DNA from: a virus
Taxonomy: Duplodnaviria; Caudoviricetes
DNA length: 64,000 nt
Strand: one strand, 5' to 3'
Virus record (IMG/VR): IMGVR_UViG_3300036987_000202
Coordinates: 7,253-71,252 of that record
Shown: piece after piece, positions 26,926-58,326 of the stretch
Layout of the letters: every line of letters begins with the position of its first letter
How positions within the stretch are numbered: position 1 is the stretch's first letter
Notes under the pieces: generated by a model
What the model saw: only the letters and a program-made list of their open reading frames with translations
Database searches by the model: none
Told to the model about the DNA's origin: nothing
Made by a program: the position numbers and the translations under genes

Positions 26926-27597
26926 TTAAACGATCAGGGCGTCGATGGACGCGAGGATCGAGGGCGAGAGCCTGCTGAGATTGCCACCACACAGGTCGAG
27001 CTGGGTGATGATCGAGGTGGCGTTCTCGTTGCCCTCCATGGACGCCTTGAGGACCATCCTCTTGATCTCCTTGTAATTCATGCCCTTGGCCTTGACCAGG
27101 GGCATCCCCCTCTCGGGAAGCTGCTGTGGGTCAAAGGTTTCACTCCTGCGGGGCATCGGCTCCTTGCCGATCGCGTCCAGGGTGTCCATGGCCTTGACCA
27201 GGACTCCGCCGCTGGCCTTGATGAGGTCCTCGTTGTACTCCATGCGGCCCTCGATTCCGGCGATCCTCTCGTTGAGTTCGCCCATCTTCTCGACGAGGCC
27301 GTTACCCATGTCGATGAGGGCCTTGATGAACTGCGTTCCCTCAACCAGGGTGGCGTCTGCTTCGTCGATTCCCTCAATCTCGTCGGCAGCCTTGACGAAG
27401 GCTTTTGCCATGAGGCCCAGGTCCTCGGCATACTTCTTGGCCTCGTCCTTGTTTTCCTTCATGTACCGTTTGAGGTATTTTTTCATGTACGACTCGTCGT
27501 ACTCGTCCTTCCCTTCTTCGGCCCGCTCGTCGTCCTCGGGTTCTTCGGAATCGGAAGCCTTGAGTAGGGCGTTCAGGATTTCGATTTCATCTTTCAT
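26926..27597 (-). CDS. Capsid scaffold protein
   Basis: 223 aa acidic, helical, between protease and capsid; eight KA motifs. Confidence 0.7.
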   Translation of the reverse strand: MKDEIEILNALLKASDSEEPEDDERAEEGKDEYDESYMKKYLKRYMKENKDEAKKYAEDLGLMAKAFVKAADEIEGIDEADATLVEGTQFIKALIDMGNGLVEKMGELNERIAGIEGRMEYNEDLIKASGGVLVKAMDTLDAIGKEPMPRRSETFDPQQLPERGMPLVKAKGMNYKEIKRMVLKASMEGNENATSIITQLDLCGGNLSRLSPSILASIDALIV

Positions 27598-27607
27598 CCT
27601 GGTCCTC

Positions 27608-28480
27608 CTAAATTTGATTTATGAGCGCCCGAATGTGATCCCGAAAGGTGTCCATGAATCGGGAGATGGTTCGCTCGTTGATGCCTTTGGTGGTGAGATA
27701 TGCGATGACGCCCTGGCGCGAGGGCGATATGGAGCCGTCGATAATGCCCATCATTACCATGTCTTTCAGCCCATCGAACGACTGGCCCTTCGTGGCCCCT
27801 TCCAGGCTTTGCGTGCGCAGGGCATCAAATCCCCCCAGGGCGGCGCTGTCGGTGCCGTAGCCCGCGGTGAGTGCCTTACGGAGATGGTCCTCGTTGTTGA
27901 TGAGGCGATAGTCATGGGAGAATGAGGAGAGGTCGGAAAATTCGATCATGAGGTCGTTGCTGGCTTTTGCCATGCTCACCCGGCTTCCGCCGGACACGAC
28001 ATAGGGCAGCGCGGCGACGGCGATATGATTCCAGTCGATTGCGCTGATCTGGTCCTTCGCCTTGTTGATGGACTGGTCAAAAACCCGCTGTGCCTTGGTG
28101 ATGTTCCCGCCCACGGATGCCCCGAACACATCTTGACCGGCTTCCAGATGGGGTTGGATGGATTTACTGACGATGGGGTGCGCCTTGGTGAGGTTCCCGT
28201 ACACGACCGGCAGACCGGACTCCCACTGGAAGCCCGTGGGCTTGCCGATGATCGCCTGTGCCCGGGCCTCGGGGGTTTTCCCCAGCACTGATTGGTGGTG
28301 CCAGTCGATGATCCCCTCATCGAGGAACTTCTCCACGGTTGCCTTGCTGAACGCCTGGGGCAGGATCTCCTGGTTTTCCCGGTCCAGCTCCAGGCGGTTG
28401 GCAATCATGCGAATGGGAAGCACCAGGTCGTTTTCGCCTTGGGCCTTCTGTAACATCCAGTTCCCTATGTAAACTCTCAT
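27608..28480 (-). CDS. Prohead protease
   Basis: DRENQEI...IDWHH...IIGKP...GASVGG...WNHIAV motifs of phage maturation proteases. Confidence 0.8.
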   Translation of the reverse strand: MRVYIGNWMLQKAQGENDLVLPIRMIANRLELDRENQEILPQAFSKATVEKFLDEGIIDWHHQSVLGKTPEARAQAIIGKPTGFQWESGLPVVYGNLTKAHPIVSKSIQPHLEAGQDVFGASVGGNITKAQRVFDQSINKAKDQISAIDWNHIAVAALPYVVSGGSRVSMAKASNDLMIEFSDLSSFSHDYRLINNEDHLRKALTAGYGTDSAALGGFDALRTQSLEGATKGQSFDGLKDMVMMGIIDGSISPSRQGVIAYLTTKGINERTISRFMDTFRDHIRALINQI

Positions 28481-28491
28481 GGTCCCCCGTA

Positions 28492-28535: not shown

Positions 28536-28557
28536 ATAAAGTCGGCCTTCTTATGTA

Positions 28558-28722: not shown

Positions 28723-28740
28723 CCGAAGATGAAAAAAAAT

Positions 28741-29008: not shown

Positions 29009-29611
29009 TTAAAAAAGCATACCCTGGCCCTTGGCGTTCTTGAGGGCCTTTTTCTTCTCGGCCTTGGATTCGCCCAGGCGCTTGCCAGCCTTCTGCTCCC
29101 TCTTTTGGTTCTCGTTGATCTGCTTCATGTTCCCTTGCTGCTCCTGCATCCCGCCCTGGACCTCCTCGGATCCCCAGCGCCCGGCGTACAGCTCCCCCAG
29201 GGTGCTCATGAAGTTCTTGAGGGCATCCTTGACCGCCTGGCGCTTGCTGGTTTTCTTGGCGTCCTTGGCGGCATCCAGTTCTTTTTGAGCCTGCTTCACG
29301 GCGTCCTCTTTGCGCCTGATCTCGGTATCGTGATCGTTGCCCGGCTTGGGTTTCTTCCCCTGCCCGCCATCTTCCGCGGGGATCTTTCGCTTTTTGTCGG
29401 GCGTACCGGTAGCGGCGGGTTTCTTGGCCTTCGCCTCGGGCATGATTCCCTTTTTCCTGGGAGCGCTCTGATCAGTTCCGGTGCGCACCCATTTGGTCTG
29501 TTTCCGGCCATTTTTATCCGTGATCTGCTTCTGGACCAGCCCCGCCCGTCCCGGGCCTGCCTTGAGTATCATGGTGCCGTCCTCGGTGAGCACTATCCTT
29601 GCTTTCAGCAT
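29009..29611 (-). CDS. Lys-rich putative internal head protein
   Basis: Start MLKARIV at 29611; carries the shared KAGPGR...KQITDKNGRKQTKWVR motif. Confidence 0.6.
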   Translation of the reverse strand: MLKARIVLTEDGTMILKAGPGRAGLVQKQITDKNGRKQTKWVRTGTDQSAPRKKGIMPEAKAKKPAATGTPDKKRKIPAEDGGQGKKPKPGNDHDTEIRRKEDAVKQAQKELDAAKDAKKTSKRQAVKDALKNFMSTLGELYAGRWGSEEVQGGMQEQQGNMKQINENQKREQKAGKRLGESKAEKKKALKNAKGQGMLF

Positions 29612-29645
29612 ATTTTTTTCCCCTGACTTATACATTGATGACTTG

Positions 29646-32600
29646 TTATATCTCGATTCCGTGAATATCGACCGCCTTACGGAGATCCAGGCGATCCAGC
29701 AGATCCAGGGCCTTGTTGAACATATCAAACTTTTTCAGTGCCTCAACCAGCCCATCCATGGCCTTATTGATCCTTTCCCGTTCTTCCCCCAGGGGGTAGG
29801 CGCTGGTTACCCCGCGATCCCCCTCCAGGATATTTGCCTGCTTCGACCATGTGGCAGCCGCTTCCTTGCTCACGCCGGACACCAGGTAGGTGTTTTTCAT
29901 CTTCTTCTCGGCCAGCTTATCGTAGACATAGGACTCAAATGACCTGGCAAAAAGCTCATGAGGACGCTGCCAGTAATCCCCCATCTTTTCCGCGGTGGCC
30001 AGGAAATTGGATTTACCCTCGGCAACGGCAGGGGAAACGCTCGGCATCGAGAGCGTGATCTTATCTCCCTGCTTGAAAATCCCGTGCTTGAAACCCATCG
30101 ACACATAGTATTTGATGTCCCGGCGCATGGATGAGATGGCCCGCTGTTGTGCCTTGGTCCAATAGTGTGCCCCGCTATAAGTGTTCGCAAAAGATTCATT
30201 ACGCTGGCGTTGAGCATCCCCTTTTTCGGTGACATACTTTTGCAAGAACTCGGTGAACTTGTCCTTGCTGAGAGTGGGGTAGTCTGGACCGTTATCGAAC
30301 ACCTTTATTTCATTGTCTCCCAGGATACCATCAATCTCATGTTCATCTATACTGCTGAGAGGTTGCGTAAAGTACGCATACATCCGTCGCTTGCTGTCGG
30401 GATGAGCGAGCTTTTCATGGCCAAACAACTCTTTAAGAAAAGCAGGGTTTTTCAATGGATACTTGTCATCGGGGTATTTCGCCATCACCTCATTAAACAC
30501 GCTCTCCAGGGTTTCCTTGGGAAGCTGGGGGTTCTCTCCATGGAGATAGGTCATCAGCTTTACATCGCTGGTGGTATGACCATGATAGCGCACCCGCGGG
30601 TCCGTCATAGTCATGGTGGTGGATCCTGAAAAATTCCCCTTGTGAATAGCCTGCCTGACCTCCCACAGTGCCGCCTTGATGTCATCCGGCATTTGGCCTC
30701 CAGAAAACCCGAGGTCAGAGGTAAACGATAACGAGCCACCAGACCCCCCCATGGATAACATCCCCATGATATTATCGAGGGCATGGCCCCATTCGTGGGC
30801 CAGGGAGCCGCCGCCTGCGGCCTTGGTGAGATTGATTACCTTCCTGCCTGGCTCGTAGTGTGCTTTCGCCTTCCCCTTGCCCCGGGCACCAAACGCCAGG
30901 GAGAGCCGACCATTGAGGCTCACCATCTTCCTGTCGATCCCCAGGATATGAGAAAGGTCAGCCAGGGCCTCCCCTGCCCGCTGGGTATGGGTCCGGCTCG
31001 ATTCCAAGTCCATCCAGTTGCCATACTCAACTCCCCGCAGGCCGTAATCTCCCATCAGGGTTTTACTGTCGTAATCCTTATCCGCGACCTGGCTTTCCCG
31101 CTCCACCTTGTCGGGGACATCGCGCTCCCACTTCATTGTCTCCTGACGCTTTTTATTGCGCTGCTGCTTCTCGCCCTCTGATTCTTCCAGCCCGGCCCAC
31201 TTCCAACTATCGTTGGCCCTGGACATCTTGAACAGGCGATTGGCCGCATCATATTGTAAGAGTTTTGCGAACGGCGCTCCGAGGGACTTGTAGAGCTTCT
31301 GGATGCTATACGGATCCTCCTCCTGGCGCTTCCTGGCCTCCTTTTCCATGGTGTTCATCTGGTTCCAGAGCATCATGTCCTCTTTTTCCAGCTCTTTCAA
31401 CCGTGGATCATTCTCACGCTCCCGCGAGGTCATGCTATGCAGCCCGCGGGACAACTCCACACGGCGTACATGAACCTCCTTTCTCTTTTGCTGGAGCCAG
31501 GCATGGTGTTCCTGCTCCTCGGCGGTATAGACAACCCCCCTGTATTCATCAAGCATCTGCTCGATGCCGCTGCGTAAATCTTCTCTGGTTTTCCAGGTCA
31601 TCACCGCTTTCAAGACACGCTCGATGCCCATGATATACCTTTTCCTGGACTCGGGGTTGTCATCAGGCTTGGCCTGGATCGCGGAAACATACCGCCAGGC
31701 GGCATACGCGGTGCCCGGTTCGGCTCCGGCGTTTTTTAGGGCGGTCGCCACGGCCTTGCGGTTGCCGCATTGACGCTCCCGGGTCACCAGCAGCCCGGCC
31801 TCCTCGCTCTCCTCCAGGTTTTCAATATCCGTCAGGGTAACCGACTTGGTGGCATCGTCTTTATACAGCTTCACCAGGGCGGCAAGGTCCTTCCTGGCAC
31901 CCCCGATCTTCTGGCCCACGTCAACGTAGCGGTCCTTCTCGGTCTGCCGCTTGGTCGCCGCGGTTTCACGCTTCGCGGGCTTTTTCCTCTCTCCCGCGGG
32001 TTTCTTTTTCTTCTCTCCGGCAAGCAGGTCCTTGAGTGCTGCCGTGGGGTCCACGGATTCCTGTTCATCCAGGGGCCACAGGCTTTCACTCTCTATGGCA
32101 TTATCGAACGCGGACTCCTTCATGCTGCCGCTGCCCTTCCCGTCCAGGTCCTTATACTTCACCCATCCGTCTTTGATTTCCGTGATGATGATGTTGGTTT
32201 TCACCGGCACGGTCTTTTCCCCGTCGAACATGGTGGTGTCAAACGAGTATTTCTTGCCCACCAGGGTGGACTTGTCATCGTTGGGTTTGTCCTGGAAGAT
32301 ACCCTGGTCCCGGTTGAATGAAAACTCCCGATACGACACAGACTCCTGCTGCCCGGTCTGCTTGCTGACAAAGACCACCCTCTGCTCCTCGGCATCGTTC
32401 CCCGGGGTCAGGTCGGTGACGGTGATGTCATGGACAAAATCTCTCTCGCCATGCCCCATGTGTTCCTTGTAGATGTACGTTTTACCAACAAAGGATTCAC
32501 GGCGGGCCTTCCAGCCCTCCTCCGTGTTCGTATCCTTGAACTTGAATACTGCGCTTTCTTTTCCTCCGTACAGCTCATGCAGGAGCTTCATCACGTCCTT

Positions 32601-33035
32601 GTTCCAGGTCTTTTTCTCCCCGCCCTGGTATCCGCCCCCGGTCTTACCTCCCCCCGTACCCTTGCCGCCCTGGGATCCGCCGCCCCCGGTCTTTCCCCCG
32701 CCGGTAAACGACCTATCCCAAAACGCCTTGCGCTTGAAATACTCGGCAACGTGCTCACCCCAGGCTTCCGCGGAGATGTGGTACTTCTCCTTGACCTGGT
32801 GCTCCCTGTAGAGCGCGGCAATCTTGGCGGCAACCTCCCGCTTGGCCTTCAGTCCGAAAAACTCCAGGATCACGTCGATCACCGTGCGCTGTGGCCCCTG
32901 GTCGTTCTTTTTCCATACCGTCTGGCGCACCCCCTTTTTGTTGGTGATGACCTCGGCGTGGAGCTTGGCGATATCCTTCCTGCCCGGCTGGGCCTTGAGG
33001 AGATCGTCGTCAAAGAGGGATGGTTGGTGCATCAT
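29646..33035 (-). CDS. Large polyvalent protein with zincin-like HEWGH and LPD1-like C-domain
   Basis: 1129 aa; GQKIGGARKD; GSLAHEWGHALD; YWQRPHELFARSFESYV. Confidence 0.7.
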   Translation of the reverse strand: MMHQPSLFDDDLLKAQPGRKDIAKLHAEVITNKKGVRQTVWKKNDQGPQRTVIDVILEFFGLKAKREVAAKIAALYREHQVKEKYHISAEAWGEHVAEYFKRKAFWDRSFTGGGKTGGGGSQGGKGTGGGKTGGGYQGGEKKTWNKDVMKLLHELYGGKESAVFKFKDTNTEEGWKARRESFVGKTYIYKEHMGHGERDFVHDITVTDLTPGNDAEEQRVVFVSKQTGQQESVSYREFSFNRDQGIFQDKPNDDKSTLVGKKYSFDTTMFDGEKTVPVKTNIIITEIKDGWVKYKDLDGKGSGSMKESAFDNAIESESLWPLDEQESVDPTAALKDLLAGEKKKKPAGERKKPAKRETAATKRQTEKDRYVDVGQKIGGARKDLAALVKLYKDDATKSVTLTDIENLEESEEAGLLVTRERQCGNRKAVATALKNAGAEPGTAYAAWRYVSAIQAKPDDNPESRKRYIMGIERVLKAVMTWKTREDLRSGIEQMLDEYRGVVYTAEEQEHHAWLQQKRKEVHVRRVELSRGLHSMTSRERENDPRLKELEKEDMMLWNQMNTMEKEARKRQEEDPYSIQKLYKSLGAPFAKLLQYDAANRLFKMSRANDSWKWAGLEESEGEKQQRNKKRQETMKWERDVPDKVERESQVADKDYDSKTLMGDYGLRGVEYGNWMDLESSRTHTQRAGEALADLSHILGIDRKMVSLNGRLSLAFGARGKGKAKAHYEPGRKVINLTKAAGGGSLAHEWGHALDNIMGMLSMGGSGGSLSFTSDLGFSGGQMPDDIKAALWEVRQAIHKGNFSGSTTMTMTDPRVRYHGHTTSDVKLMTYLHGENPQLPKETLESVFNEVMAKYPDDKYPLKNPAFLKELFGHEKLAHPDSKRRMYAYFTQPLSSIDEHEIDGILGDNEIKVFDNGPDYPTLSKDKFTEFLQKYVTEKGDAQRQRNESFANTYSGAHYWTKAQQRAISSMRRDIKYYVSMGFKHGIFKQGDKITLSMPSVSPAVAEGKSNFLATAEKMGDYWQRPHELFARSFESYVYDKLAEKKMKNTYLVSGVSKEAAATWSKQANILEGDRGVTSAYPLGEERERINKAMDGLVEALKKFDMFNKALDLLDRLDLRKAVDIHGIEI

Positions 33036-33037
33036 GA

Positions 33038-35458
33038 TTATATCCTTATGCCAAAAAATTCAAGTGGCTTGGAATACAGGGCCTTTAGGAGATCGAGCGG
33101 GCTTCCCCCCGCTTTGAGCACCTCGTTAAAGTGATTGAGCCGGGTCTTGGCCTGGATGGGCATGATCACGCCCACCACCTTACCGTCATTCACTGCGGCC
33201 AATGGACTCATTGTTGCCGCGTTCCCCTTCTGTGCCCGGAATGTGGCATTGGGGTAATGCGACCGGATCGCGGCGATATACTTGGAATCGACCATGATGT
33301 TGGTGCCCTTCCCTTCGCCGTCTTTGACCCGCAGCACCGCGGGCTTCGGAGCTTCGCCGGGAACACTTGGATCATGGAACTCCCCCGCTCCTGTATTCCG
33401 TTTTATCCCGGCAACGACCTCGGCGTCAGCGTACTCGCTGTTCACTTTCTTGATGTCGGGGATGACCTGTTTCCAGTTGGGGTACTCCTTTTCGATCTCA
33501 TGCTGTTCATCGGGCTTGAGCTTTTTCCTGTTGGCCTCATAGTATTTCTTCATTTTCGCCGGATCATCCATGAGGAGAAACTTGGCATCCGTGAACACCC
33601 CGGCCTCCTCGCCCGCCTTGGATACATAGAAATGCTTCTTGAGATCGTTGGTGCTCATGTGGAACACCTTTTTGTGGTCCGGCTGGAGATGCTGCATGAC
33701 GGTGGACTCATTCCCGTGGATCGCCACACCCTGCCCCCCGACTTTATAGGGCTTCCCCTGCTCCTGGGGCACCGGGTCGTGTTTCAGGTGATCGGCGTAC
33801 TGCTGGGCGAAGGCCCTGATTTTATCCGCAGGAGCGACATCTGCGTTACCTGCCAGGGGGTGTTTGTGCTCCTTGAGAACCTTATCTATCTTGGGATCAT
33901 TGAAATCCTTGAATACTTTGTCGGCTTCCTTGGCGCGGCCCGTGGCGTAGAGCCGTACCGCCTTTTTGAAAAGATTGGTCATCTTCGTTCCAGATACACC
34001 CTTTTCATCCTTTAACTCAAAAATCCTCGACGGGGACTTGTAGGATTCCTCGCTCCACATCTTTTCGTTGTCTACCCCGAGAGGATCAAAGTCCGAGGCG
34101 TCCATCCCCTCGGGGTAGGATTTTCTCTTATCCACTGGAGGTGCAGTATCCTCTGCTGTGGCGGGCTGCTCCGGGGCCTTCTCCGCAGCGGGGGTAGATT
34201 TTTCACCCGCTGTTTCTGCATCCCTCTCACGCTGGAGATCCCCGATGAACGTGTGAAACGCCTGGTAATCCTTGCCACTCAGTTTTTCCGCGTTCTTTTT
34301 GATGTAGTCGTGGATTTCCTGGTCTGATTTATTAAACCATGTTTCCCATCCGTTTTTGGTGGCGACTGCCTGGAGTTCCTTGGAATACTTCTCCGAGTCT
34401 TCGCCACCCTTCTCACTGGATGCGTGGCGTTGCAGGTCTGCCCCGGTGTCCACCAGTGACACGATGTCGTCTTTCCCCATACTTTTATCAGATAACGCGA
34501 GTTGTGCAACCCGGTAGACTGCACCCATGAAATTGAGCCGTTGCATTGTGTCCTCGCCCTTTTTCTTCGCTTCGGCCATTTTAACCTGTTGCGCTACCAG
34601 GTCAGCGTTACGCTCAAGGGTTTTCATTCCCAACTTCATGGCTGTTTTGACATGCGCATGAATCTGATCGTCGGTCAGACTATTGGGTTGATTTATATTT
34701 CCAAAATCGTCTTTCTTCCCCGCGGCAGCAACCGCGGCCTTGGCCTTATCCTTGTCTTTCAGGGCCGCCCAATCGCCCATAGCGACGGAGTGCTCCCCTT
34801 CCTGGACGTTACCGAGCTTATCCTTGTACTCCCAGGTATTGTTGCGCCCCTGGGATGACTCATGGGCTGCCACCACTGCCTCATGGGGGGTGATACCCTG
34901 GTATTCCCGCTTTTCACCCGTGGAGAGATTATGGACAGTGATCGATTTCTTTGCCTGGTCTTTTCCCGCGGGCTTGCCGTTGCCGTACAACCCGTGCAGG
35001 ACCTTCATAACATTAGGATTCCAGTTCTTCTTTTCCCGAGACTTTTCCTCCCCTCCCCCGCCGGTTTTCTTCTCGCCTTCCTTTCCCGGCTCTTTCTTCT
35101 TCCCACTTTCCAGCTTGGTGCCGGTAAACTTGGCGTCCCAGCGGGCCTTGTGCTTGAAATATTCAGTGAAGTGGTTGGCAAACTCCGCCGCGGAGAGTCC
35201 GTGCTCCTTCTGGATTCCATGCTCATCATAGACTTTCTTTATGTGGCTGGTTACCTCATGGTGGCTCTTGAAACCGAAAAACTCCATGATGGTGTCCAGG
35301 ATGGAATTCTTTTTCGGCTCCTCCCCGTTCTTCTTATACACGATGGTCCTCACCCCTTTCTTGTTGGTGATGACCTCCCGCCGGAGCTTGGTGATATCCT
35401 TTTTCCCCAGGGGGCCAGCCTTGAGGAGTGATTTCAGGGTGGTGATATCATAGGTCAT
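33038..35458 (-). CDS. Large protein with shared N-domain and beta-clamp-like C-terminus
   Basis: 806 aa; YPNWKQVIP...VDSKYI...GVIMPI pattern at the C-terminus. Confidence 0.55.
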   Translation of the reverse strand: MTYDITTLKSLLKAGPLGKKDITKLRREVITNKKGVRTIVYKKNGEEPKKNSILDTIMEFFGFKSHHEVTSHIKKVYDEHGIQKEHGLSAAEFANHFTEYFKHKARWDAKFTGTKLESGKKKEPGKEGEKKTGGGGEEKSREKKNWNPNVMKVLHGLYGNGKPAGKDQAKKSITVHNLSTGEKREYQGITPHEAVVAAHESSQGRNNTWEYKDKLGNVQEGEHSVAMGDWAALKDKDKAKAAVAAAGKKDDFGNINQPNSLTDDQIHAHVKTAMKLGMKTLERNADLVAQQVKMAEAKKKGEDTMQRLNFMGAVYRVAQLALSDKSMGKDDIVSLVDTGADLQRHASSEKGGEDSEKYSKELQAVATKNGWETWFNKSDQEIHDYIKKNAEKLSGKDYQAFHTFIGDLQRERDAETAGEKSTPAAEKAPEQPATAEDTAPPVDKRKSYPEGMDASDFDPLGVDNEKMWSEESYKSPSRIFELKDEKGVSGTKMTNLFKKAVRLYATGRAKEADKVFKDFNDPKIDKVLKEHKHPLAGNADVAPADKIRAFAQQYADHLKHDPVPQEQGKPYKVGGQGVAIHGNESTVMQHLQPDHKKVFHMSTNDLKKHFYVSKAGEEAGVFTDAKFLLMDDPAKMKKYYEANRKKLKPDEQHEIEKEYPNWKQVIPDIKKVNSEYADAEVVAGIKRNTGAGEFHDPSVPGEAPKPAVLRVKDGEGKGTNIMVDSKYIAAIRSHYPNATFRAQKGNAATMSPLAAVNDGKVVGVIMPIQAKTRLNHFNEVLKAGGSPLDLLKALYSKPLEFFGIRI

Positions 35459-35462
35459 GTCA

Positions 35463-38400
35463 TTACCTCACTATTTTGTAGAGCCGTCCGTTGGCCCTTA
35501 TGTATTTCGACTCATCCCTGGTGGGGATGCGTTTTATCTCTGCCTTGATGAGCTTGTCGCCCACCTGGAGAATAAAGGCTTTCTCGATCTGCTTGTATTT
35601 CAGGCTGGCCAGGATAGACTCGGCCTCCTTTTTGATCGTTTCGTGGACCGGGGGCACCTCTTTCTGGCTGGCTTGTATCTGCTTGCGGGCCTCCTCGACA
35701 TACCTGGGCCTGTCCTCATGGATCTTCTTTGCCTGCACGTCCAGGGCCGCGACATCCCGCTCCAGGCGCTCGACCTCATGGGGTATGGTCTTGAGGGAAA
35801 TGTTCCCCAGGGATTGCAGCTTGGCCTCGATCTTCTCAATCTTGGCCTTTTCCTTTTTCAGCTCATACTCAGCCCACTTTAACTTTTCCTTGTAGTGGCT
35901 GACATTCCCCTCGGCGCTCTGGACCTCGTACTCCACGCGCTCATAGGAATAATCCCGCTCTCCCTTCGCGGGCTTTGTCATGGTGGCGAGCTTGGCTTTG
36001 GCCGCCTCCAGGCCCTCCTTGGCGTTGGCGACACTTTTCTCAATATACGGGATGGTTTCCCCGGTGATCTCCTTGATCTCCTGGGCGGCGCTGGCGTGAT
36101 CATCCTTGTGTTTGTTCAGGACATCGATCTGGATGCGCAGCTCGCGCTTCTCGTTGTCAATCTTCTCCACTTCCAGGTCTATGGCGAACTTCGCCCGTTT
36201 CTCGGGATCCTTGATCAGGCTGAATTTCAGGTCCTCGGCACTGATGGCCTCGACGTTCAGGCTGTCGCCCTTATACTTCCAGACCTCGCCAAAGCGCTTG
36301 GACTTCTCATCATGCTTTTGATACATGGCCGAATCGACGCTATCAACGATCTGCGGGTAGACGATATGGACGTTCTCTTGGAGATTGCCCTGCCGCCATA
36401 CACGCCCCTCGACCTGGTGGCGCTCGGACGGATTCCAGCCCAGGAGCAGATTATACATGACCGCGCTGTTGCCGTTGAGGTTGACCCCCTCCTGGATGGA
36501 CTCGGTGCCCAGGACAATCTTGATCTTGCCGTCGGGGTTGTTGAAATCCTCCATGATCTTTTCGCGTTTATCCAGGCTCACATCAGCCGAAATAATGGAG
36601 ATGGCATCCTTGGGGATCCCCGCCTTGACCAGGTAGTCAATATACTCAGGGAAATGGTTCTTGCCGGTGGGCATGTAGAGGACCTGGCCCACGTCGGGCC
36701 GCTTGCTGTATATCTCACGGACACAGCCGAACGAGAAATTGAGCTTGGGTGAATCTGAAATCGGATCGCCGGAGAAATCGACGTTTTCATGGAACTTGGG
36801 ATCGCGCTTCACCAGGTCCATCGATACCGTGGACTGCCGCATGTTGTTGATGGCAACCAGGGCCGCACCGGGGTTGTCTTTTGAAACGCTGGCAAACCGG
36901 AGCTGTTCCGCATCGATGAGCTGCTTTTGAGCTGCCGACTGAGGAAGCTCGACAATGTGGATTGTTTTATTGGGCCGCACCACCCCGGCCTCCTCGCCGT
37001 CCACCTTATCGATATACTCCCTGATGAGGTTTTGCAGGGCTGGAAGGTTCTTAAACTCCTTCATCACGCTTTTTTTCTCGATGGTGCCCTTGGTGGTTAC
37101 GGACCATTCGGACTTGAGGAGTGCGAAATGGGCCAGAAATTCGTGCATGTTGTAGATGCCCAGGTCCTTGAGTTTCTGCCGGGCCACCAGGGAGAGCACG
37201 TTGTATATTTCAATGGGTGAGTTGGTAAATGGGGTCGCGGTCAGGGCAAACACGTTCCTGCCGTTGTTTTGGGACTGGATGTACTGCGTAATCCCGAACA
37301 TTTTGGCGGCCCGGTTGGATGTGCCACCCTGGAGATCGTTAAATTCGTTGACCCCTTTCTTGTCGTCGCCCTTTTCAGTTTTCTGCGTCGGGGTCTTGGC
37401 GCGGCCAAACACGTTTTTGAAATTATGCGCCTCATCGATGGTGATGTGGTCAAATCCAAGGTTTTCCATGAAAAACGCCTCGGACCTCACACCGGACGCC
37501 TTGCCCAAAATCTCCTTGATGCGCTCGGTCTGGAGCTGCTGCTCCCGCTTGGATTCCTTGCTCTGGTCCTCATCGGCAACCTTCTGTGAATCCATCATGT
37601 CGGCCAGGAGCGTGCCCTCGATGGTTTCATCGGTAAAGGTGATATTCTCAAGCCCCTCGTAGGACATCACGTTGAGGGCACCCTCGGGAATATCGATGGT
37701 GCCGTCGGCGTTTTTGAATTTCTTGGTATAGGCATCGCCCATATTGCCCAGCTCGTTGATTTTAATGTCGGGCACCAGGTCGCGTATTTCCTTGAGCCAG
37801 TTTTTATACGTCGCCTTGGGAACCACCACCATCGGCTTTTTACATCTGCCGCTCTGGAGCTGCTGCACGGTGGCCATGATCCCCGTGAGGGTCTTGCCCA
37901 CACCCACGTCATAGGCAAGCAGGCCGTTCCCCTTGGTGTTCAGGAAGGCAACCCCCTTGAGCTGGATATCCTTGACGCTGAGTTCCTTTCCTTTGAAACT
38001 CTTGCTCAACCCATCCACGAACACGGGGATCTTCGTGTAATCGGGGGACACGTTGGAATTGAACGTATAGTTGTAATGGTCCTCCAGCTTCTTCTGTTCC
38101 TCGGATTCCAAGCCGGTTTCGATGAACCGCTTGAACAACCGCTCGGCGGCCTCCCGGCGTTTTTCCCGCTTGAGTGCCGCCTCCGCCTTGTTCTTATCCT
38201 GCTGATCTTCCTTGGCTTTCCCGCTTAAATACGAGCTGACCTTGTTGGCCCGCACCTGGTCGCCCTTGATGTAGTCCACGATATCGGTCCAGGAAATGAC
38301 CCCGGGGATGTCATGCTGGGTGACGTTGCCGTTGAAATTCTGATAGTTGGTATTTCCGCGGGACACCCCGCACCACTCCCAAAACTTGTTGATCAGGGTG

Positions 38401-40556
38401 GCGTTTCCCTCATCGGAGAATGAGAACTTCTGTGCAAACTCCGAAATGGGGGAGATGGTAATATTTTTCGTTGTTTTCTTCTCGGGCAGTACCGACTCCA
38501 GGAGCGCTTTCTGGCGCTTGTAGGTGCCTGCGGGAATATTTTCCCGGTCCTTTTCAAGCTGATCCAGGCGTTCGTAGATGTTGCCCGATGCGTAGAGGCT
38601 GGCGTGATACACCTGACCGTCCATCATGCAGAACTGGTCGCTGGTCTGGAATTTCTTCGCTGCCTCGGGGGAGAGCTTCGCCATGTCTATATGGCCGTAG
38701 ATGTCGGTGGCGGCAAACACCTCGACCTCATGGGCTTCCATGCGGCGGTTGTACTTCTGGTTAAACTCCTCAAGGGAGTGAACTTCTTTTGTCCCGGCCT
38801 GGGGTTCATCCGTGCCGCCGCCCCCGCCTGTCTTTGCCTTGGGTTCCTTTTTAAAGAGCTTCTCTGCGTTCTTGTTGCCTTCCAGGGCAATGGAGATCGC
38901 CTCTTTCTGCTGCTCACTCAAGGGCTTGTTTCCCGCCGGTGCCGCGTCCACCTTCGTCAGGTCAATGCCCGCCATGACCTCATCGAAGGTCTTGCCCGCG
39001 GGCAGGCCCACATACTTCTCAGGCCCCCACTTCCCGGTCCTGGTGGTTTCCTCGCCCAGAACGTGCTCGGGGTGCTTGGCAAAGTAGCCGTCGGCGTAGA
39101 AGTCGTTGACATCTCCCTTTTCCTTTCGGATAATCAGGATGTCGGTGCCGATCCCGGTAGTGCCGAATGTGCCGTTGGGCAGGCGGTACGCCTCAACGAG
39201 CTTCCCCTTGGCGGCGAGCTTCTGCTTGACCTCGCTGTTGCTGTAATTGCGCATGAAGCCGGACGGCACGATAAAGGCCATGACCCCGCCGTCTTTCAGG
39301 GTATCCAGTCCGCGGTCCATGAAATACTCCTCGTACCGCTTGTGGTCCTTCCCCTCCCCGCGGCCTTTCCAGATGCCGGTGTACTCGCCGTAGGGTGGAT
39401 TCCCGATCACCAGGTCATATTTCTTCCCGGCGTACTGCTTCTGGATTGCCCCGTTCTTGGTAAAGAGTTCCTGGAAGGCCCCTTTCTTCACGGTGGCGTC
39501 GGGATTGAGTATCTTGGCGATCCTGGCGGATACGTCGTCGATCTCCACCATGTCGATCTTCATGTCCTGCCGGTCGGAGAGAAAACCGAAACGCCCGGTG
39601 CCCGCGCTCGGCTCCAGGACATCGAGGGATCTCTTTTCGCCCAGCCATTTGGATGCCAAGCCCCATATTTTCTGAATGACGGTTTTCGGGGTGTAAAACT
39701 CGTAGAGTGTGCCGTGGGTGGTGGCGTCGTCCTCACCGAGGCCCCCCGCTCCCTCGTACTGCCGGAGCAGGGCCTTGTCCTCCTCGGTCATCTGGTCGTC
39801 GGTCTTATTTTTCAGCAGCTCCAGGCATTGCTCACGGATCTGCTTTATTCGTGACTTGGTGAGGCGAACATCGCTTGCAGGTCGCTCTCCAGGAACGCCG
39901 CTTGGGAGTACAGATTCGCCTCCGTGACCTCCTGGTTGCTTTTCCGGCACATCTCCACCAGGGTGTTTATCAGCCTTTCCTCGCTGTACCGCCGGGTGAG
40001 CTGCGGGAAGTTCTCCGCGTCCAGTTGCAGGCTTATCTTGTCCATGCGACTCCTCCTTTTTCATGGCTCCATAGCTTCCATGGAGCCACTTCATTACAGT
40101 TAAATTAAACTTACTTTCCCCCGCGGTTTCAACCCCTTTTCCCCCGCCGCCGGTCTTTTTTCCCCCTCCACCCTGGGATCTGCCGGAGCTTCCCCCGGTG
40201 GGCTTGGACCTGGAAAAGAAAGCATCCCATTTTACCTTATTGTGAAAATATTCCAGGAAATGCGCGGCGAAAGTCTTGCCATCGACACCAGCATCGGGAT
40301 GGTCCTTGGAAAACGCTATGTGATCGTATGAAATATGGTCCTCGACCTGCTTGCGGGTTTTCACCTTGAAAATACCCATCAGGGACTCCCATAGGCCCGC
40401 GGCCTTTGGAAGAATTCGGACCCACTTGGTCTGCCTGCGGCCCTTGCTGTCGATGATCTGCTTGCGCGTAAGCTTCGACGTGTCGATCTTGGTCGGCCCC
40501 TGGGACTGTGCCTTGGTGAGATCGTCTTTTTTCTTTAACAGGTCTTTAAGATTCAT
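35463..40556 (-). CDS. DarB-like N6-adenine methyltransferase + SNF2-type helicase
   Basis: 1697 aa; EFYTP, VLEPSAGTG, GNPPY; LAYDVGVGKT, IDEAHNFKN, QVEGRVWRQGN. Confidence 0.85.
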   Translation of the reverse strand: MNLKDLLKKKDDLTKAQSQGPTKIDTSKLTRKQIIDSKGRRQTKWVRILPKAAGLWESLMGIFKVKTRKQVEDHISYDHIAFSKDHPDAGVDGKTFAAHFLEYFHNKVKWDAFFSRSKPTGGSSGRSQGGGGKKTGGGGKGVETAGESKFNLTVMKWLHGSYGAMKKEESHGQDKPATGRGELPAAHPAVQRGKADKHPGGDVPEKQPGGHGGESVLPSGVPGERPASDVRLTKSRIKQIREQCLELLKNKTDDQMTEEDKALLRQYEGAGGLGEDDATTHGTLYEFYTPKTVIQKIWGLASKWLGEKRSLDVLEPSAGTGRFGFLSDRQDMKIDMVEIDDVSARIAKILNPDATVKKGAFQELFTKNGAIQKQYAGKKYDLVIGNPPYGEYTGIWKGRGEGKDHKRYEEYFMDRGLDTLKDGGVMAFIVPSGFMRNYSNSEVKQKLAAKGKLVEAYRLPNGTFGTTGIGTDILIIRKEKGDVNDFYADGYFAKHPEHVLGEETTRTGKWGPEKYVGLPAGKTFDEVMAGIDLTKVDAAPAGNKPLSEQQKEAISIALEGNKNAEKLFKKEPKAKTGGGGGTDEPQAGTKEVHSLEEFNQKYNRRMEAHEVEVFAATDIYGHIDMAKLSPEAAKKFQTSDQFCMMDGQVYHASLYASGNIYERLDQLEKDRENIPAGTYKRQKALLESVLPEKKTTKNITISPISEFAQKFSFSDEGNATLINKFWEWCGVSRGNTNYQNFNGNVTQHDIPGVISWTDIVDYIKGDQVRANKVSSYLSGKAKEDQQDKNKAEAALKREKRREAAERLFKRFIETGLESEEQKKLEDHYNYTFNSNVSPDYTKIPVFVDGLSKSFKGKELSVKDIQLKGVAFLNTKGNGLLAYDVGVGKTLTGIMATVQQLQSGRCKKPMVVVPKATYKNWLKEIRDLVPDIKINELGNMGDAYTKKFKNADGTIDIPEGALNVMSYEGLENITFTDETIEGTLLADMMDSQKVADEDQSKESKREQQLQTERIKEILGKASGVRSEAFFMENLGFDHITIDEAHNFKNVFGRAKTPTQKTEKGDDKKGVNEFNDLQGGTSNRAAKMFGITQYIQSQNNGRNVFALTATPFTNSPIEIYNVLSLVARQKLKDLGIYNMHEFLAHFALLKSEWSVTTKGTIEKKSVMKEFKNLPALQNLIREYIDKVDGEEAGVVRPNKTIHIVELPQSAAQKQLIDAEQLRFASVSKDNPGAALVAINNMRQSTVSMDLVKRDPKFHENVDFSGDPISDSPKLNFSFGCVREIYSKRPDVGQVLYMPTGKNHFPEYIDYLVKAGIPKDAISIISADVSLDKREKIMEDFNNPDGKIKIVLGTESIQEGVNLNGNSAVMYNLLLGWNPSERHQVEGRVWRQGNLQENVHIVYPQIVDSVDSAMYQKHDEKSKRFGEVWKYKGDSLNVEAISAEDLKFSLIKDPEKRAKFAIDLEVEKIDNEKRELRIQIDVLNKHKDDHASAAQEIKEITGETIPYIEKSVANAKEGLEAAKAKLATMTKPAKGERDYSYERVEYEVQSAEGNVSHYKEKLKWAEYELKKEKAKIEKIEAKLQSLGNISLKTIPHEVERLERDVAALDVQAKKIHEDRPRYVEEARKQIQASQKEVPPVHETIKKEAESILASLKYKQIEKAFILQVGDKLIKAEIKRIPTRDESKYIRANGRLYKIVR
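39845..40045 (-). CDS. Candidate overprinted 66-aa gene nested in the DarB-like linker
   Basis: AAGGAGG six nt before ATG; amphipathic helical sequence in a different frame from the host ORF. Confidence 0.35.
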   Translation of the reverse strand: MDKISLQLDAENFPQLTRRYSEERLINTLVEMCRKSNQEVTEANLYSQAAFLESDLQAMFASPSHE

Positions 40557-40572
40557 GGTTTCCTCGGTGGTG

Positions 40573-42918
40573 TTATGCAGCTCTGGTGGTATCGCCGGAA
40601 CGTATCCAGGCGGTGAATTGCGCGACGCTCATGGGTTTAATTGATTTAAACCCCTTCCATTTAATCACCCGGGCCGCCTTCCCCAGTATCTCCTTTATAA
40701 CGCCCTTGGCCCTGGGACGAGTGGTGACGACCGGCTTCATGGTCCTGGTGTCGATACCGTGGGCGAGGTTCTCAGGGCCTTGTGGAGCCAGGCGTTCCGT
40801 CCTGACGCTGCGCTGGTCATCCAGGATGACATCGACAAAATAATTCTTCGCCATCCCCTTCTTGATGGCCTTCCCGTGTTTCTCCATATCCAGGCCTACG
40901 GCAAAAAGGCTCTGCGTGCCCATATCCAGGGCGAACTGCCGTGCGTATTTCAATCCCCTGGTGCCCGTGCCAAGGAAATATTCCCTCGGCACCTGGGCGA
41001 TTGCCCGCACCTTGTTTGCCACCCCAATGAAGGTGACATAGCTCTCCTGGTGGAGCGCATAGGCTTTCACCAGCTCGATCAGGTCAAAGGGACTGTGAAC
41101 GGTTTTCCCCAGCGCATCATGGGGTATCGAAGGGGTCAGGTAGCGGTCCGCCTCATCCTTGCCGGTGATTTCATGTTCTTTACTCAATATGACATTGCTT
41201 TTTTGGCGTATCTCACAGTATTTATTGTGGTTGATGATGACGTGTCCCTGGAAGCCAGGCACCTCGGTGTGGTAGTAGGCGGTGGTTTTCAAGTCATCCT
41301 TCGACGGCTTCACCTCTCCCGAAGGGTGGTTGTGGACAAAATACCACTTGGATGCCCCGCACGATTTCATGGTTTCCTTCATGAACTGCACGGTGCTGGT
41401 CATATTGCCGGGATCAACGAGGGTTGTCGCGGTCCCCGGGAGTCTGCACGACACCCCGGTATGGCCCACGATGGTATTCTGGTCATTGACGAAAAACACG
41501 CGCAGGGTTTCATACTGCGGGTTGCGGTACACCTGGGACAGATACGCCAGGTCGTTGGTGGACTTGACCGTCTGCCCCATCAGGGAGAGCCTGCCCTTTG
41601 TCTGCCATTCCTTTTTGTAGGCCATATTGATGCCGACACCCACCTCACGCGGCACCCGGTTTTCCAGGTAGTCGTCTTTCTTATCCTCACGGACATAGAC
41701 GGTTTGGGGATGGCCCTTGATGTTAATGATCTGCTTTTTATGGAGCCGGGCGAGGTCTTTGCGCCCGGGGATCGCCTTGGAAAGCGGCTGGTAGTATTGA
41801 TAGATTGCTTTTGCCAATGGGGTATTAACCAGGCCCCCCTCGACCGGCAGGACGGCCCCGGCGAGGATCCCCGCGGTCACCTTGACGAACTGCACGGCCC
41901 CCAGGGTTTTGAGGATTTCATGGTCCACCACGGCGGCGGGAAAAGCAGGGGTCCCGGGGTTTACCTTCACAGGAAACCTGGCCTTGATCATTCGGTTCGG
42001 CAGCCGGTAGCGTTTCCCATCCTCCATGGCGTCCACGAACGCCCGCAGGAGTGGTGCTGCCTTCTCCCAGGTTCTTCGCTGGGCTGCCTGCTCCTGGAGC
42101 CTGGAGATAATGCCGGTGATGATACGCATGCCCGCAGGATCCATCTGCTCCAGGAGCGTCAGATATCCGCGGTGCATCACCTGGCCCTTGGCGTACCACA
42201 TGTAGATCGTGGCGAAATATTCCTGGTCGGTTTTCCAGTGGGCCTCGGTCATGAACAGGGGCGAAATGGTATCCTTGGTGAGGGTAGCGTGGTGGTCTTT
42301 AATGGCATTGCGCTCGTCATTGGTGAGCCGATTGGACCAGAAGATGTGCCCGAGTTCGTGGAAAAACTCACTCACCGGGTCAGAGGGGTCATATATCACG
42401 ATTTCCGGCCCCACGGTCATGGACCGGATGACGTTTTTAATCTCATGCTGGGTGGGCTTGCGAAACGCCAGGATAACCGGGTGATTCGGCAGCCAGAAAC
42501 TCCCCAGGCGCAGGGGGCGTAGTACCCGCACGGCGGCATCCTGCGCTTCCCGGCACTCGGCGGGCCAGTTGTCCCGCTCCGGCGTGAAGATCACCAGGTC
42601 CTTCTCCTGGGATGCTCCCTTGATCTCCCCCTGGACCAGGACCGCCCGCCCCGACCAGGACTGCACCAGCTCCTCATCGGGCACTTCGCGCACCTGGCCC
42701 CGGGAGTCGGTGAGAATCATAGAATTGGGGTTTTCACCGATCACCAAGGCAGTCGCGTTTTTTTGCCCATAGTCAATAATAACGGGCTGCCCGTCCTGAA
42801 TCGCTTTTCGCAATTCCCGAATCGAATAGTGCCCGTAGGCAATCCGGTGATCCTTGAGCGCGTGCTGGATGTGATCGATACCTTGGCCGAGGCAGCGAAC
42901 GAGGGGTTTTAAATCCAT
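40573..42918 (-). CDS. Polyvalent protein: degenerate C39-like + zincin metallopeptidase + JAB/RadC-like domain
   Basis: 781 aa; FFHELGHIF (HExxH); YETLRVFFVN...VHNHPSGEVKPSKDD. Confidence 0.75.
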   Translation of the reverse strand: MDLKPLVRCLGQGIDHIQHALKDHRIAYGHYSIRELRKAIQDGQPVIIDYGQKNATALVIGENPNSMILTDSRGQVREVPDEELVQSWSGRAVLVQGEIKGASQEKDLVIFTPERDNWPAECREAQDAAVRVLRPLRLGSFWLPNHPVILAFRKPTQHEIKNVIRSMTVGPEIVIYDPSDPVSEFFHELGHIFWSNRLTNDERNAIKDHHATLTKDTISPLFMTEAHWKTDQEYFATIYMWYAKGQVMHRGYLTLLEQMDPAGMRIITGIISRLQEQAAQRRTWEKAAPLLRAFVDAMEDGKRYRLPNRMIKARFPVKVNPGTPAFPAAVVDHEILKTLGAVQFVKVTAGILAGAVLPVEGGLVNTPLAKAIYQYYQPLSKAIPGRKDLARLHKKQIINIKGHPQTVYVREDKKDDYLENRVPREVGVGINMAYKKEWQTKGRLSLMGQTVKSTNDLAYLSQVYRNPQYETLRVFFVNDQNTIVGHTGVSCRLPGTATTLVDPGNMTSTVQFMKETMKSCGASKWYFVHNHPSGEVKPSKDDLKTTAYYHTEVPGFQGHVIINHNKYCEIRQKSNVILSKEHEITGKDEADRYLTPSIPHDALGKTVHSPFDLIELVKAYALHQESYVTFIGVANKVRAIAQVPREYFLGTGTRGLKYARQFALDMGTQSLFAVGLDMEKHGKAIKKGMAKNYFVDVILDDQRSVRTERLAPQGPENLAHGIDTRTMKPVVTTRPRAKGVIKEILGKAARVIKWKGFKSIKPMSVAQFTAWIRSGDTTRAA

Positions 42919-45105: not shown

Positions 45106-45141
45106 GGGTTTTCCCTTCCAATAATTGTTCTGTTTTTTAGG

Positions 45142-45170
45142 AATATATTGGGAAGAGTATTTATTGTCAA
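45142..45170 (-). promoter_or_regulatory. Sigma70-type promoter for the head-morphogenesis gene
   Basis: TTGACA-17 nt-TATATT on the minus strand. Confidence 0.6.
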
Positions 45171-45271
45171 GTGCCGCCACTCACCCGATCTACCATTGAA
45201 TTGTGCTTGATTTTTCTTTTATGAACTTCTATCAAAGATCAGTTATTATATACTTAAATGGGTGGTTCCGA

Positions 45272-56359: not shown

Positions 56360-56636
56360 ACAGAGCCTCCCTCAATTCCATCCGTTGCCCCTCGCTCAAT
56401 CCCTCCAGGAACCGCTCCCAATTCCCCACGGACAACCTGACCGCCTTGGATACCATCAGCACATCGCTGGCAAAGCGGGTTTTCCGGTTCCAGGTGGACA
56501 GGGTGGCATACATCTGATCCATTTCAGTCGCTGGGACAAAGGGGTTGACTGAGCATATCAGGAGCCGGGTGTCACCGGCCTCGATACGCTCAAAGGTGCA
56601 GCCCGAGCGCAGGATAAATTCCATCGCCTCGGTCAA
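56346..56636 (-). CDS. Hypothetical protein
   Basis: 96 aa, overlaps the portal stop. Confidence 0.5.
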   Translation of the reverse strand: MTEAMEFILRSGCTFERIEAGDTRLLICSVNPFVPATEMDQMYATLSTWNRKTRFASDVLMVSKAVRLSVGNWERFLEGLSEGQRMELREALCGYC

Positions 56637-58321: not shown

Positions 58322-58326
58322 CGTTA

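What the first reader, a model, noticed from the sequence alone, without database searches (positions are those of the whole stretch)
29009..42918. Five clustered proteins share a leader motif, three share a ~150-aa N-domain: candidate packaging and ejection system for polyvalent cargo
Seen: KA-x-PG(R/K)K...L...(V/Q)I(T/I)(N/D)-x-KG...(Q/T)-x-(W/Y)-x-(K/R) occurs at the N-termini of the 200-, 1129-, 806- and 1697-aa proteins and internally in the 781-aa protein, just before its JAB domain. The three largest continue with a shared helical block (I.EFFG.K...EV...I...EYF..K..WD..F), a Gly/Lys linker and (W/F)N..VMK.LH..YG, then diverge into unrelated effectors. All sit inside the head module. Known: P1 packages DarA/DarB/Ddr proteins and T4 uses a capsid-targeting sequence. 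Inference: a modular address tag loads diverse anti-host enzymes into the capsid for injection. I do not recognise this domain as a named family.
Basis: partly seen in the sequence, partly recalled or inferred. Interest (0 to 1): 0.88.

Follow-up and report, generated by a model that had tools for sequence, protein, structure and literature searches.

The report
Shared cut-and-load tag on phage cargo
Five neighbouring genes in the head-gene block of an uncultured phage carry the same label: a probable head-protease cutting site, then a small basic hairpin, and in three of them a helical domain. The same label separates the enzyme units of large 'polyvalent' phage proteins elsewhere, so it most likely marks capsid cargo to be loaded, trimmed and injected, though loading is not shown.

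Summary
A profile built from the three large proteins alone finds the leader in the 781-aa and 200-aa proteins (E 1e-8 and 7e-6) and nowhere else in the 71-kb viral contig. Likeness among the five proteins is confined to this module.

The genes lie between a MuF-like gene and a gp21-fold prohead protease, scaffold and SPO1-like capsid gene. They are the unfused parts of a 'polyvalent protein': DarB-like methylase-helicase, zincin+LPD1, zincin+RadC/JAB, and two unknowns.

The module has no hit in Pfam or NCBIfam and no fold relative. It occurs in about 158 protein clusters, nearly all polyvalent proteins. In a close relative (capsid 66% identical) the 781-aa protein is fused to three more enzyme units, each preceded by the leader.

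The leader starts with a hydrophobic-x-K-A site. That site is strongly enriched in scaffold and protease, and in the capsid protein it sits where the deposited mature phi812 capsid chain starts.

Best reading (0.55): a cut-and-load label for capsid cargo. Which part is the address is open, and neither packaging nor injection is shown. This scan has reached similar readings on other phage DNA. It is a new variant of a known kind.

The parts
29009..29611 (-). 200-aa protein: short N-terminus, K-A site plus basic hairpin (29483-29569), then a Lys/Glu-rich low-complexity tail. Probable basic internal head protein.
   Evidence: (E 7.2e-6). The ortholog in the relative G002 is 380 aa (DUF6582 + zinc ribbon + internal leader + the same kind of tail).
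29646..33035 (-). 1129-aa protein: tag module (residues 1-157, 32565-33035; leader 32907-33002), then a zincin-like HExxH region and a C-terminal LPD1 domain. It ends in K-A sites and a short conserved tail.
   Evidence: (LPD1, E 3e-22).
33038..35458 (-). 806-aa protein: tag module (residues 1-164, 34967-35458; leader 35330-35428), then about 640 aa with no family match. It ends in a K-A site and the same conserved tail.
   Evidence: (AlphaFold model of residues 1-175).
35463..40556 (-). 1697-aa DarB-like protein: tag module (residues 1-165, 40062-40556; leader 40416-40520), LPD36-like four-helix region, N6-adenine methylase, SNF2 helicase, and a C-terminal K-A site plus hairpin-like tail.
   Evidence: (DarB-like phrog_10089, E 4e-80).
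40573..42918 (-). 781-aa protein: N-terminal domain with an HELGH zincin motif (42346-42360), internal K-A sites plus leader hairpin (41689-41784), then a RadC-like JAB domain (41272-41547).
   Evidence: E 1.1e-8; 38% identical to the first 718 aa of the 1919-aa fused protein of relative G002.
43606..45180 (-). MuF-like head protein (524 aa) just upstream of the array. The longer + strand ORF 43603-45210 is a shadow ORF.
   Evidence: (aligns at E 5e-11 to a MuF-InPase protein across its Pfam Phage_Mu_F region, including the CxxC motif).
27608..28480 (-). Prohead protease (290 aa), T4 gp21/herpesvirus assemblin fold. It carries 7 hydrophobic-x-K-A sites against 0.4 expected.
   Evidence: Foldseek hit to 5JBL, E 7.6e-5, probability 1.00, TM 0.61 by target.
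26926..27597 (-). Scaffolding protein (223 aa): N-terminal helix ending in a K-A site, an acidic tract, a conserved Tyr/Met/Lys helix, and 8 K-A sites against 0.5 expected.
25409..26896 (-). Major capsid protein (SPO1-like HK97 fold). The probable maturation cut is between K25 and A26 (26819-26824).
56633..60101 (-). Portal (56633-58351) and large terminase (58674-60101), which bound the head module on the far side.

Best explanation
The five genes are the unfused units of a phage polyvalent-protein set, that is, enzymes carried inside the capsid and delivered with the DNA. Each unit starts with one portable module. The module is a short amphipathic helix ending in hydrophobic-x-K|A, then a Lys-rich two-stranded hairpin. 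In the three largest proteins there follow a four- to five-helix bundle, a disordered Gly/Lys loop and a capping helix. Proposed mechanism: late in infection the tagged proteins join the assembling procapsid together with scaffold and protease. The gp21-fold prohead protease cuts after the Lys, as it does in capsid protein, scaffold and itself. This removes the pre-helix, trims the C-terminal tails and, in fused relatives, separates the enzyme units. The hairpin (with or without the bundle) then forms the N-terminus of each mature cargo protein. The cargo leaves with the DNA and acts against host defences. Shown: the module, its spread, its position at unit boundaries, the head-module context, the protease fold and the site enrichment. 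Inferred: cutting at K|A, presence in the procapsid, which sub-part is the address, and ejection.
For: The module is shared and otherwise unique in the contig. The profile search finds 158 clusters at E<=1e-3. Pfam on 34 of them gives LPD1 in 13, the DarB-type dyad in 7-9, and InPase, ART-PolyVal, PBECR3 and RadC in 1-2 each. Gene order is terminase, portal, MuF-like, the array, protease, scaffold, capsid, and relatives keep it. In relative G002 (capsid 66% identical) the 781-aa ortholog is a 1919-aa fusion whose RadC, ART-PolyVal, InPase and PBECR3 units are each preceded by K-A plus hairpin. In the 154 proteins held after the profile search there are 168 leaders: 120 N-terminal, 48 internal, and 23 proteins with two or three. 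K-A or K-S lies beside 150 of 168 leaders, against a mean of 47 for random windows. The 290-aa protein has the gp21 fold. K-A sites number 8 vs 0.5 expected in scaffold and 7 vs 0.4 in protease. The capsid site is conserved in six related phages. It aligns with V-V-K24|S25 of the phi812 capsid protein, and the 439-aa deposited chain 9ROW_B starts at S25. P1 DarB has a proven 30-residue targeting signal at the same place, upstream of LPD36 (PMC9024508).
Against: There are no virion proteomics, no cleavage data and no binding partner. If the cut is K|A, the hairpin and N-domain stay on the mature protein, unlike the T4 signal, which is removed. The address could therefore be the pre-helix instead, or the tag could serve another purpose. 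A tag on every unit of a fused protein is more than loading alone needs. The K-A count beside leaders is partly circular, because the leader profile includes those columns. Enrichment of K-A inside the five cargo proteins is modest (26 observed vs about 13 expected). That 9ROW_B represents the mature chain is inferred from its deposited sequence alone.
Confidence: 0.55

Rival explanations
1. Punctuation only. The module is a cutting site plus spacer that lets a protease separate and trim enzyme units. That protease could be the prohead protease or the zincins carried by the 781-aa and 1129-aa proteins, as Iyer et al. proposed for polyvalent proteins. Loading into the head depends on something else, such as the MuF-like protein, the portal or co-assembly with scaffold.
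For: Leaders stand between units in fused relatives. K-A sites also flank C-terminal tails. Two zincin motifs lie in the array. A MuF-like gene sits directly upstream.
Against: Capsid and scaffold K-A sites have no hairpin, so cutting does not need it. Yet the hairpin is the best conserved part. The roughly 110-aa helical domain is far more than a spacer. Separate genes that need no separation still keep the full module.
Confidence: 0.2
2. Anchor rather than address. The basic hairpin and the bundle stay on the mature enzymes and bind the packaged or incoming phage DNA, or a host factor such as the sliding clamp. This would keep the enzymes on the genome they protect.
For: With a K|A cut the hairpin becomes the mature N-terminus. 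It is very Lys/Arg-rich. The 200-aa protein is a hairpin plus a histone-like basic tail. P1 DarA-Hdf contact DNA inside the head (abstract of PMC12810830). Every unit of a fused protein keeps its own copy.
Against: No DNA-binding or clamp-binding fold or family was detected. The aromatic segment that resembles a clamp peptide lies in a confidently modelled helix of the bundle and does not look like a free linear motif. Nothing was tested directly.
Confidence: 0.15
3. Not virion cargo. These would be late cytoplasmic enzymes that share a paralogous N-domain through duplication, and their place among the head genes reflects only co-regulation.
For: There is no direct evidence for presence in virions. 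The N-domains within this phage are paralogous.
Against: The same module sits on unrelated enzymes in many phages, always beside portal, MuF or capsid genes. The enzyme set matches proteins known to be packaged in P1. The K-A sites shared with capsid, scaffold and protease would be unexplained.
Confidence: 0.07

Closest known systems
Polyvalent proteins of phages and conjugative elements (Iyer, Burroughs, Anand, de Souza, Aravind 2017, PMC5512222)
   Same: The domain repertoire is the same: the DarB methylase-helicase dyad with LPD36, LPD1, zincin peptidases, RadC/JAB and, in relatives, ART-PolyVal, InPase and PBECR3. The link to head genes and the predicted delivery with the DNA also match.
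   Different: Here the units are mostly separate genes, each headed by a module that the paper's main text does not describe and for which Pfam gives no hit. The paper proposes processing by the proteins' own zincins. The evidence here points to the prohead protease. The paper's supplementary domain list (LPD1-40) could not be read.
T4 capsid-targeting sequence on internal proteins IPI-III and Alt, removed by prohead protease gp21 (as reviewed in PMC9024508 and PMC9026906)
   Same: A short N-terminal signal is shared by several unrelated cargo proteins and ends at the consensus site of a gp21-fold protease, a site also used in capsid and scaffold proteins.
   Different: There is no sequence likeness. 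The site is hydrophobic-x-K|A, not L/I-x-E. Beyond the cut lie a conserved hairpin and a helical domain, which T4 lacks. Sufficiency for loading has not been tested.
P1 DarB capsid-targeting signal (Gonzales et al. 2022, PMC9024508)
   Same: It sits at the N-terminus of a DarB-type methylase-helicase, directly upstream of LPD36. The first 30 residues of DarB suffice to load a reporter.
   Different: P1 DarB lacks this module, and the P1 Dar proteins show no shared tag according to that paper. Here five proteins share one.
MuF-fused effectors (MuF as the N-terminal head module with variable C-terminal enzymes; cited in PMC5512222)
   Same: The logic is a constant N-terminal head-associated module with variable enzymes behind it, in the same genomic place after the portal gene.
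   Different: The N-domain is not MuF (no Pfam hit), and a separate MuF-like gene lies upstream. The module here also occurs repeatedly inside single proteins.
Ejection proteins of giant phages such as SPN3US, cut by the prohead protease (abstracts of PMC10052503 and PMC7411985)
   Same: Many packaged, ejected head proteins are matured by the prohead protease at a consensus site.
   Different: These are a different phage lineage and different proteins, and I found no sequence relation. The papers were seen as abstracts only.

Membership tests
Polyvalent proteins (Iyer et al. 2017) | Domains of the polyvalent repertoire with disparate activities combined in one polypeptide | tested here: met
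   Methylase + SNF2 helicase (1697 aa), zincin motif + RadC/JAB (781 aa), zincin-like + LPD1 (1129 aa). The relative's 1919-aa fusion adds ART-PolyVal, InPase and PBECR3.
Polyvalent proteins (Iyer et al. 2017) | Linked to phage packaging or late genes | tested here: met
   The genes lie between the MuF-like/portal/terminase genes and the protease/scaffold/capsid genes.
Polyvalent proteins (Iyer et al. 2017) | Delivered into the host with the DNA | not testable with these tools
   This needs virion proteomics and infection assays.
T4-type capsid-targeting sequence | Short N-terminal signal ending at the prohead-protease consensus shared with capsid and scaffold proteins | tested here: inconclusive
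   The K-A site precedes every leader, is enriched in scaffold and protease, and is homologous to the start of the mature phi812 capsid chain. No cleavage data exist for this phage.
T4-type capsid-targeting sequence | Sufficient to load a foreign protein | not testable with these tools
   This needs a reporter fusion in a cultured relative.
P1 DarB targeting signal | Sequence likeness to the first 30 residues of P1 DarB | tested here: not met
   A profile search of P1 DarB, DarA, DdrA, DdrB, Hdf and Ulx gave nothing meaningful.
P1 DarB targeting signal | Position at the N-terminus of a DarB-type protein, upstream of LPD36 | tested here: met
MuF (PF04233) head-targeting domain | Match of the shared N-domain to the MuF profile | tested here: not met
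   Pfam gives no hit on the N-domains at E<=0.01. MuF-like sequence is in a separate upstream gene.
Any named family for the shared N-domain | Hit in Pfam, NCBIfam, PDB sequences or folds, or ESM Atlas | tested here: not met
   (best Z 4.1). The precomputed Pfam lists of 116 homologs name only downstream domains. The PHROG hits of the five proteins cover only downstream regions.
gp21/assemblin-fold prohead protease (the 290-aa protein) | Fold match to T4 gp21 | tested here: met
   Foldseek hit to 5JBL, E 7.6e-5, probability 1.00; herpesvirus proteases come next. The model's pLDDT is only 63, with a core of 78-90.
gp21/assemblin-fold prohead protease (the 290-aa protein) | Catalytic His/Ser residues in place | not tested
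   Invariant His and Ser columns exist in the alignment of five orthologs but were not superposed on gp21.

The most novel reading that the evidence does not exclude
Hydrophobic-x-K|A followed by the basic hairpin is a general, portable cut-and-load code of phages with SPO1-like capsids and gp21-fold proteases. The head protease, not the cargo's own zincins, cuts polyvalent proteins into units inside the procapsid. A tag of roughly 45 residues would then suffice to load any protein into such capsids for delivery.
Probability: 0.3. Interest if true: 0.8.

Novelty: new variant of a known kind. Interest (0 to 1): 0.62.

Why it matters
How phages choose which enzymes to pack into the head, and how giant polyvalent proteins are cut into working units, is known for only a few model phages (T4, P1). 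A conserved tag shared by five cargo proteins here and by about 150 protein clusters elsewhere gives a concrete, testable signal. The tag is tied to a predicted protease site, and it is present in one cultured phage, Leptospira phage LE1. It would help annotate injected anti-defence enzymes in metagenomic phages. It offers an alternative to the self-processing model for polyvalent proteins. If sufficient for loading, it would be a handle for packing chosen proteins into phage capsids.

Tried and rejected
Complex prediction of scaffold with the N-domain gave no verdict and is not used either way.

Fold searches with the N-domain model found no relative: Foldseek against PDB and BFVD and VIA wide (best Z 4.1). 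A weak or missing match does not show that the fold is new.

The ESM Atlas gave no usable hit and NCBIfam gave nothing. The word-based homolog search with a single N-domain found only the query itself; the alignment was needed.

The P1 Dar proteins lack the module.

tblastn of the N-domain against 50,697 cultured phage records found only Leptospira phage LE1. The LE1 genome paper is not held. The LE3/LE4 virion proteomics paper concerns unrelated phages.

Literature searches for the protease specificity of SPO1-like phages found nothing usable. The PDB chain lengths were used instead.

A PDB search with the first 50 capsid residues gave only spurious TALE-repeat matches.

I considered LPD36 as the identity of the N-domain and rejected it. 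LPD36 is the four-helix GxG-motif domain directly before the methylase, downstream of the module. PF28555, listed for the DarB-like homologs, is absent from the LPD1-type proteins that also carry the N-domain, so it is not this domain either.
Full report
WHAT IS THERE. The window is part of a 71-kb IMG/VR viral contig, estimated 79% complete. Five consecutive minus-strand genes occupy 29009-42918. They encode proteins of 200, 1129, 806, 1697 and 781 aa. All five align over a leader of about 30 residues. The three largest also align over a helical block, a Gly/Lys-rich loop and a short conserved helix. All-against-all BLASTP finds likeness only in this module:
- 1129 vs 806: 47% over 154 aa, E 2e-31.
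- 806 vs 1697: 36% over 150 aa, E 2e-12.
- 1129 vs 781: 54% over 35 aa at residues 379-413, E 6e-6.
- 200-aa protein vs 1697: 65% over 20 aa.

A profile built from the three N-domains alone finds the two leader-only copies in a six-frame search of the whole contig, at E 1.1e-8 and 7.2e-6, and nothing else.

CONTEXT. On the same strand, from high to low coordinates, lie:
- large terminase (58674-60101) and portal (56633-58351);
- a low-GC island on the other strand that holds a Type ISP restriction-modification enzyme;
- a MuF-like gene (43606-45180). It aligns at E 5e-11 to a MuF-InPase protein across that protein's Pfam MuF region;
- a 142-aa gene, then the five genes;
- a 290-aa protein whose AlphaFold model matches T4 prohead protease gp21 (5JBL, E 7.6e-5, probability 1.00), with herpesvirus proteases next;
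- a scaffold-like protein, then an SPO1-like major capsid protein;
- sheath and baseplate genes further on.

The array therefore sits where MuF-linked injected proteins usually sit.

WHAT THE CARGO IS.
- The 1697-aa protein is DarB-like: N6-adenine methylase plus SNF2 helicase, with a DarB-like PHROG at E 4e-80. Between the tag and the methylase lies the four-helix GxG-motif region that Iyer et al. call LPD36.
- The 1129-aa protein ends in LPD1 and has an HExxH region.
- The 781-aa protein has an HELGH zincin motif, then the leader, then a RadC-like JAB domain.
- The 806-aa and 200-aa proteins match no family. The 200-aa protein is a leader plus a Lys/Glu-rich tail.

These are parts of the polyvalent-protein repertoire (PMC5512222).

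THE MODULE ELSEWHERE. A HMMER search of 1.84 billion representative proteins with the N-domain profile gives 158 clusters at E<=1e-3 and 39 at E<=1e-10. Most hits are proteins of 700-2400 aa. Pfam on 34 of them gives LPD1 (13), SNF2/Helicase_C/Eco57I (7-9), and InPase, ART-PolyVal, PBECR3 and RadC in 1-2 each. None of them shows a hit on the module itself. A second search finds 116 more proteins. Where a source gives a name it is 'hypothetical protein', and the precomputed Pfam lists name only downstream domains.

Sub-profiles run on the 154 proteins held after that search find 168 leaders. Of these, 120 are N-terminal and 48 internal, 118 are followed by the helical block, and 23 proteins carry two or three. 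The hairpin comes in at least three interchangeable sequence variants. The ortholog of the 806-aa protein in the close relative carries a different variant on the same helical block.

STRUCTURE. AlphaFold on residues 1-175 of the 806-aa protein, with 35 aligned sequences, gives pLDDT 77. The model has:
- a helix at 5-13, ending at the K-A site;
- a hairpin at 25-31/37-43 (pLDDT 83-93);
- a helical bundle at 53-112 (pLDDT 84-96);
- a disordered loop;
- a helix at 148-159.

Foldseek against PDB and BFVD, and VIA against 48,161 chains, give no relative; the best Z is 4.1.

THE RELATIVE THAT EXPLAINS THE LAYOUT. Contig G002 has a capsid protein 66% identical to this one and the same gene order. 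Its counterpart of the 781-aa protein is 1919 aa. The first 718 residues are 38% identical. They are followed by a zincin-like/ART-PolyVal unit, an InPase unit and a PBECR3 unit. Each unit is preceded by K-A plus hairpin, at about residues 372-405, 751-781, 1203-1232 and 1739-1774. The leader therefore marks the start of enzyme units, whether they are fused or encoded separately.

A more distant group of phages shows terminase, portal, MuF-InPase, a tagged DarB-like protein, a PBECR3/DdrB-ParB protein with a third hairpin variant, and a leader-tagged protein of about 417 aa.

THE PROTEASE SITE.
- Every leader begins with hydrophobic-x-K-A.
- Against composition-matched shuffles, this four-residue pattern occurs 8 times in the scaffold (0.5 expected) and 7 times in the protease (0.4 expected). 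It occurs 26 times in the five cargo proteins (about 13 expected), concentrated at their ends.
- The capsid protein has the site at residues 23-26. The same position is K-A in five related phages and K-S in LE1.
- It aligns with V-V-K24-S25 of the Staphylococcus phage phi812 capsid protein (5LII, 463 aa). The 439-aa chain 9ROW_B is the same sequence starting at S25.
- I take this as indirect evidence that the mature capsid protein of this family starts right after the Lys, so the cut is K|A.
- K-A or K-S lies beside 150 of 168 leaders, against a mean of 47 for random windows. The leader profile includes those columns, so this count is partly circular.
- The C-termini of the 1129- and 806-aa proteins and their orthologs end in K-A plus a short conserved tail. 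DarB-like and LPD1-type homologs end in K-A plus a hairpin-like tail of about 20 residues.

MOST LIKELY MECHANISM (confidence 0.55). The tagged proteins enter the procapsid with scaffold and protease. The protease cuts after the Lys. This removes the short pre-helix and the C-terminal tails, and in fused relatives it separates the units. The cargo then leaves with the DNA.

The principle is established for T4 and for P1 DarB, whose first 30 residues load a reporter (PMC9024508). P1 DarB lacks this module, but its signal occupies the same place. What remains open is which sub-part is the address. With a K|A cut, the hairpin and bundle stay on the mature protein, and every unit of a fusion keeps its own copy. 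Both facts fit an anchor role (DNA, capsid wall or a host factor) as well as a loading role.

RIVALS. Punctuation only (0.2). Anchor acting after cutting (0.15). Late cytoplasmic enzymes that are not packaged (0.07).

NOVELTY. The concept is known. This tag family, its link to the head protease and its role as punctuation of polyvalent proteins are not in Pfam or NCBIfam, nor in the main text of Iyer et al. 2017. That paper's supplementary domain list could not be read. Earlier agents of this scan reached similar readings on other phage contigs. Those notes are unchecked and are not used as evidence. Among the 50,697 cultured phage records searched by tblastn, only Leptospira phage LE1 gp26 matched the module, which makes bench tests possible.

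Noticed in passing
window 45203-54439 (+ strand): A low-GC island (29-47% GC against about 57% around it) lies on the opposite strand, inside the head module between the MuF-like gene and the portal-proximal genes. It starts with a complete Type ISP restriction-modification enzyme (Mrr-like nuclease, helicase, coupler, methylase, specificity domain). So a phage with a DarB-like anti-restriction enzyme also carries its own restriction enzyme.
   Followed up: partly
window 27608-28480 (-), residues about 199-225: The C-terminal part of the prohead protease copies the N-arm of the capsid protein just after its K-A site. A profile of five protease orthologs hits SPO1 capsid protein Gp6.1 (9VEL_C, residues 19-61). 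The segment also resembles the capsid N-arm of the more distant phage group. It may be how the protease docks into the shell.
   Followed up: partly
window 26926-27597 (-): The scaffold has a conserved acidic tract followed by a strongly conserved Tyr/Met/Lys-rich helix in all five orthologs aligned. Facing Lys-rich cargo hairpins, this is a candidate docking surface. The one complex prediction gave no verdict.
   Followed up: partly
window 29646-29690 and 33038-33085 (-); L027 orthologs: The 1129- and 806-aa proteins and their orthologs end in K-A, then 5-9 residues, then a conserved hydrophobic-Glu/Asp-aromatic-Gly-Ile tail. This tail resembles the first helix of the N-domain's helical block. 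Its meaning is unknown.
   Followed up: no
window 43603-45210 (+) vs 43606-45180 (-): The longest ORF here is a + strand shadow ORF with an antisense-like composition. The real gene is the minus-strand MuF-like gene. Its ortholog in G002 (62% identical) carries an extra insertion with a weak, below-cutoff NT5C-like (5'-nucleotidase) match.
   Followed up: partly
L022 (Leptospira phage LE1), gp25 N-terminus: LE1 gp25, annotated as a tail protein, begins with a sequence resembling the capsid N-arm just after its K-S site. In LE1 the tagged proteins lie downstream of the capsid gene rather than upstream.
   Followed up: no
window 28490-28986: A small zinc-ribbon gene lies between the 200-aa gene and the protease gene. 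It is conserved in G002 as a 74-aa C4 protein. Its role is unknown.
   Followed up: no
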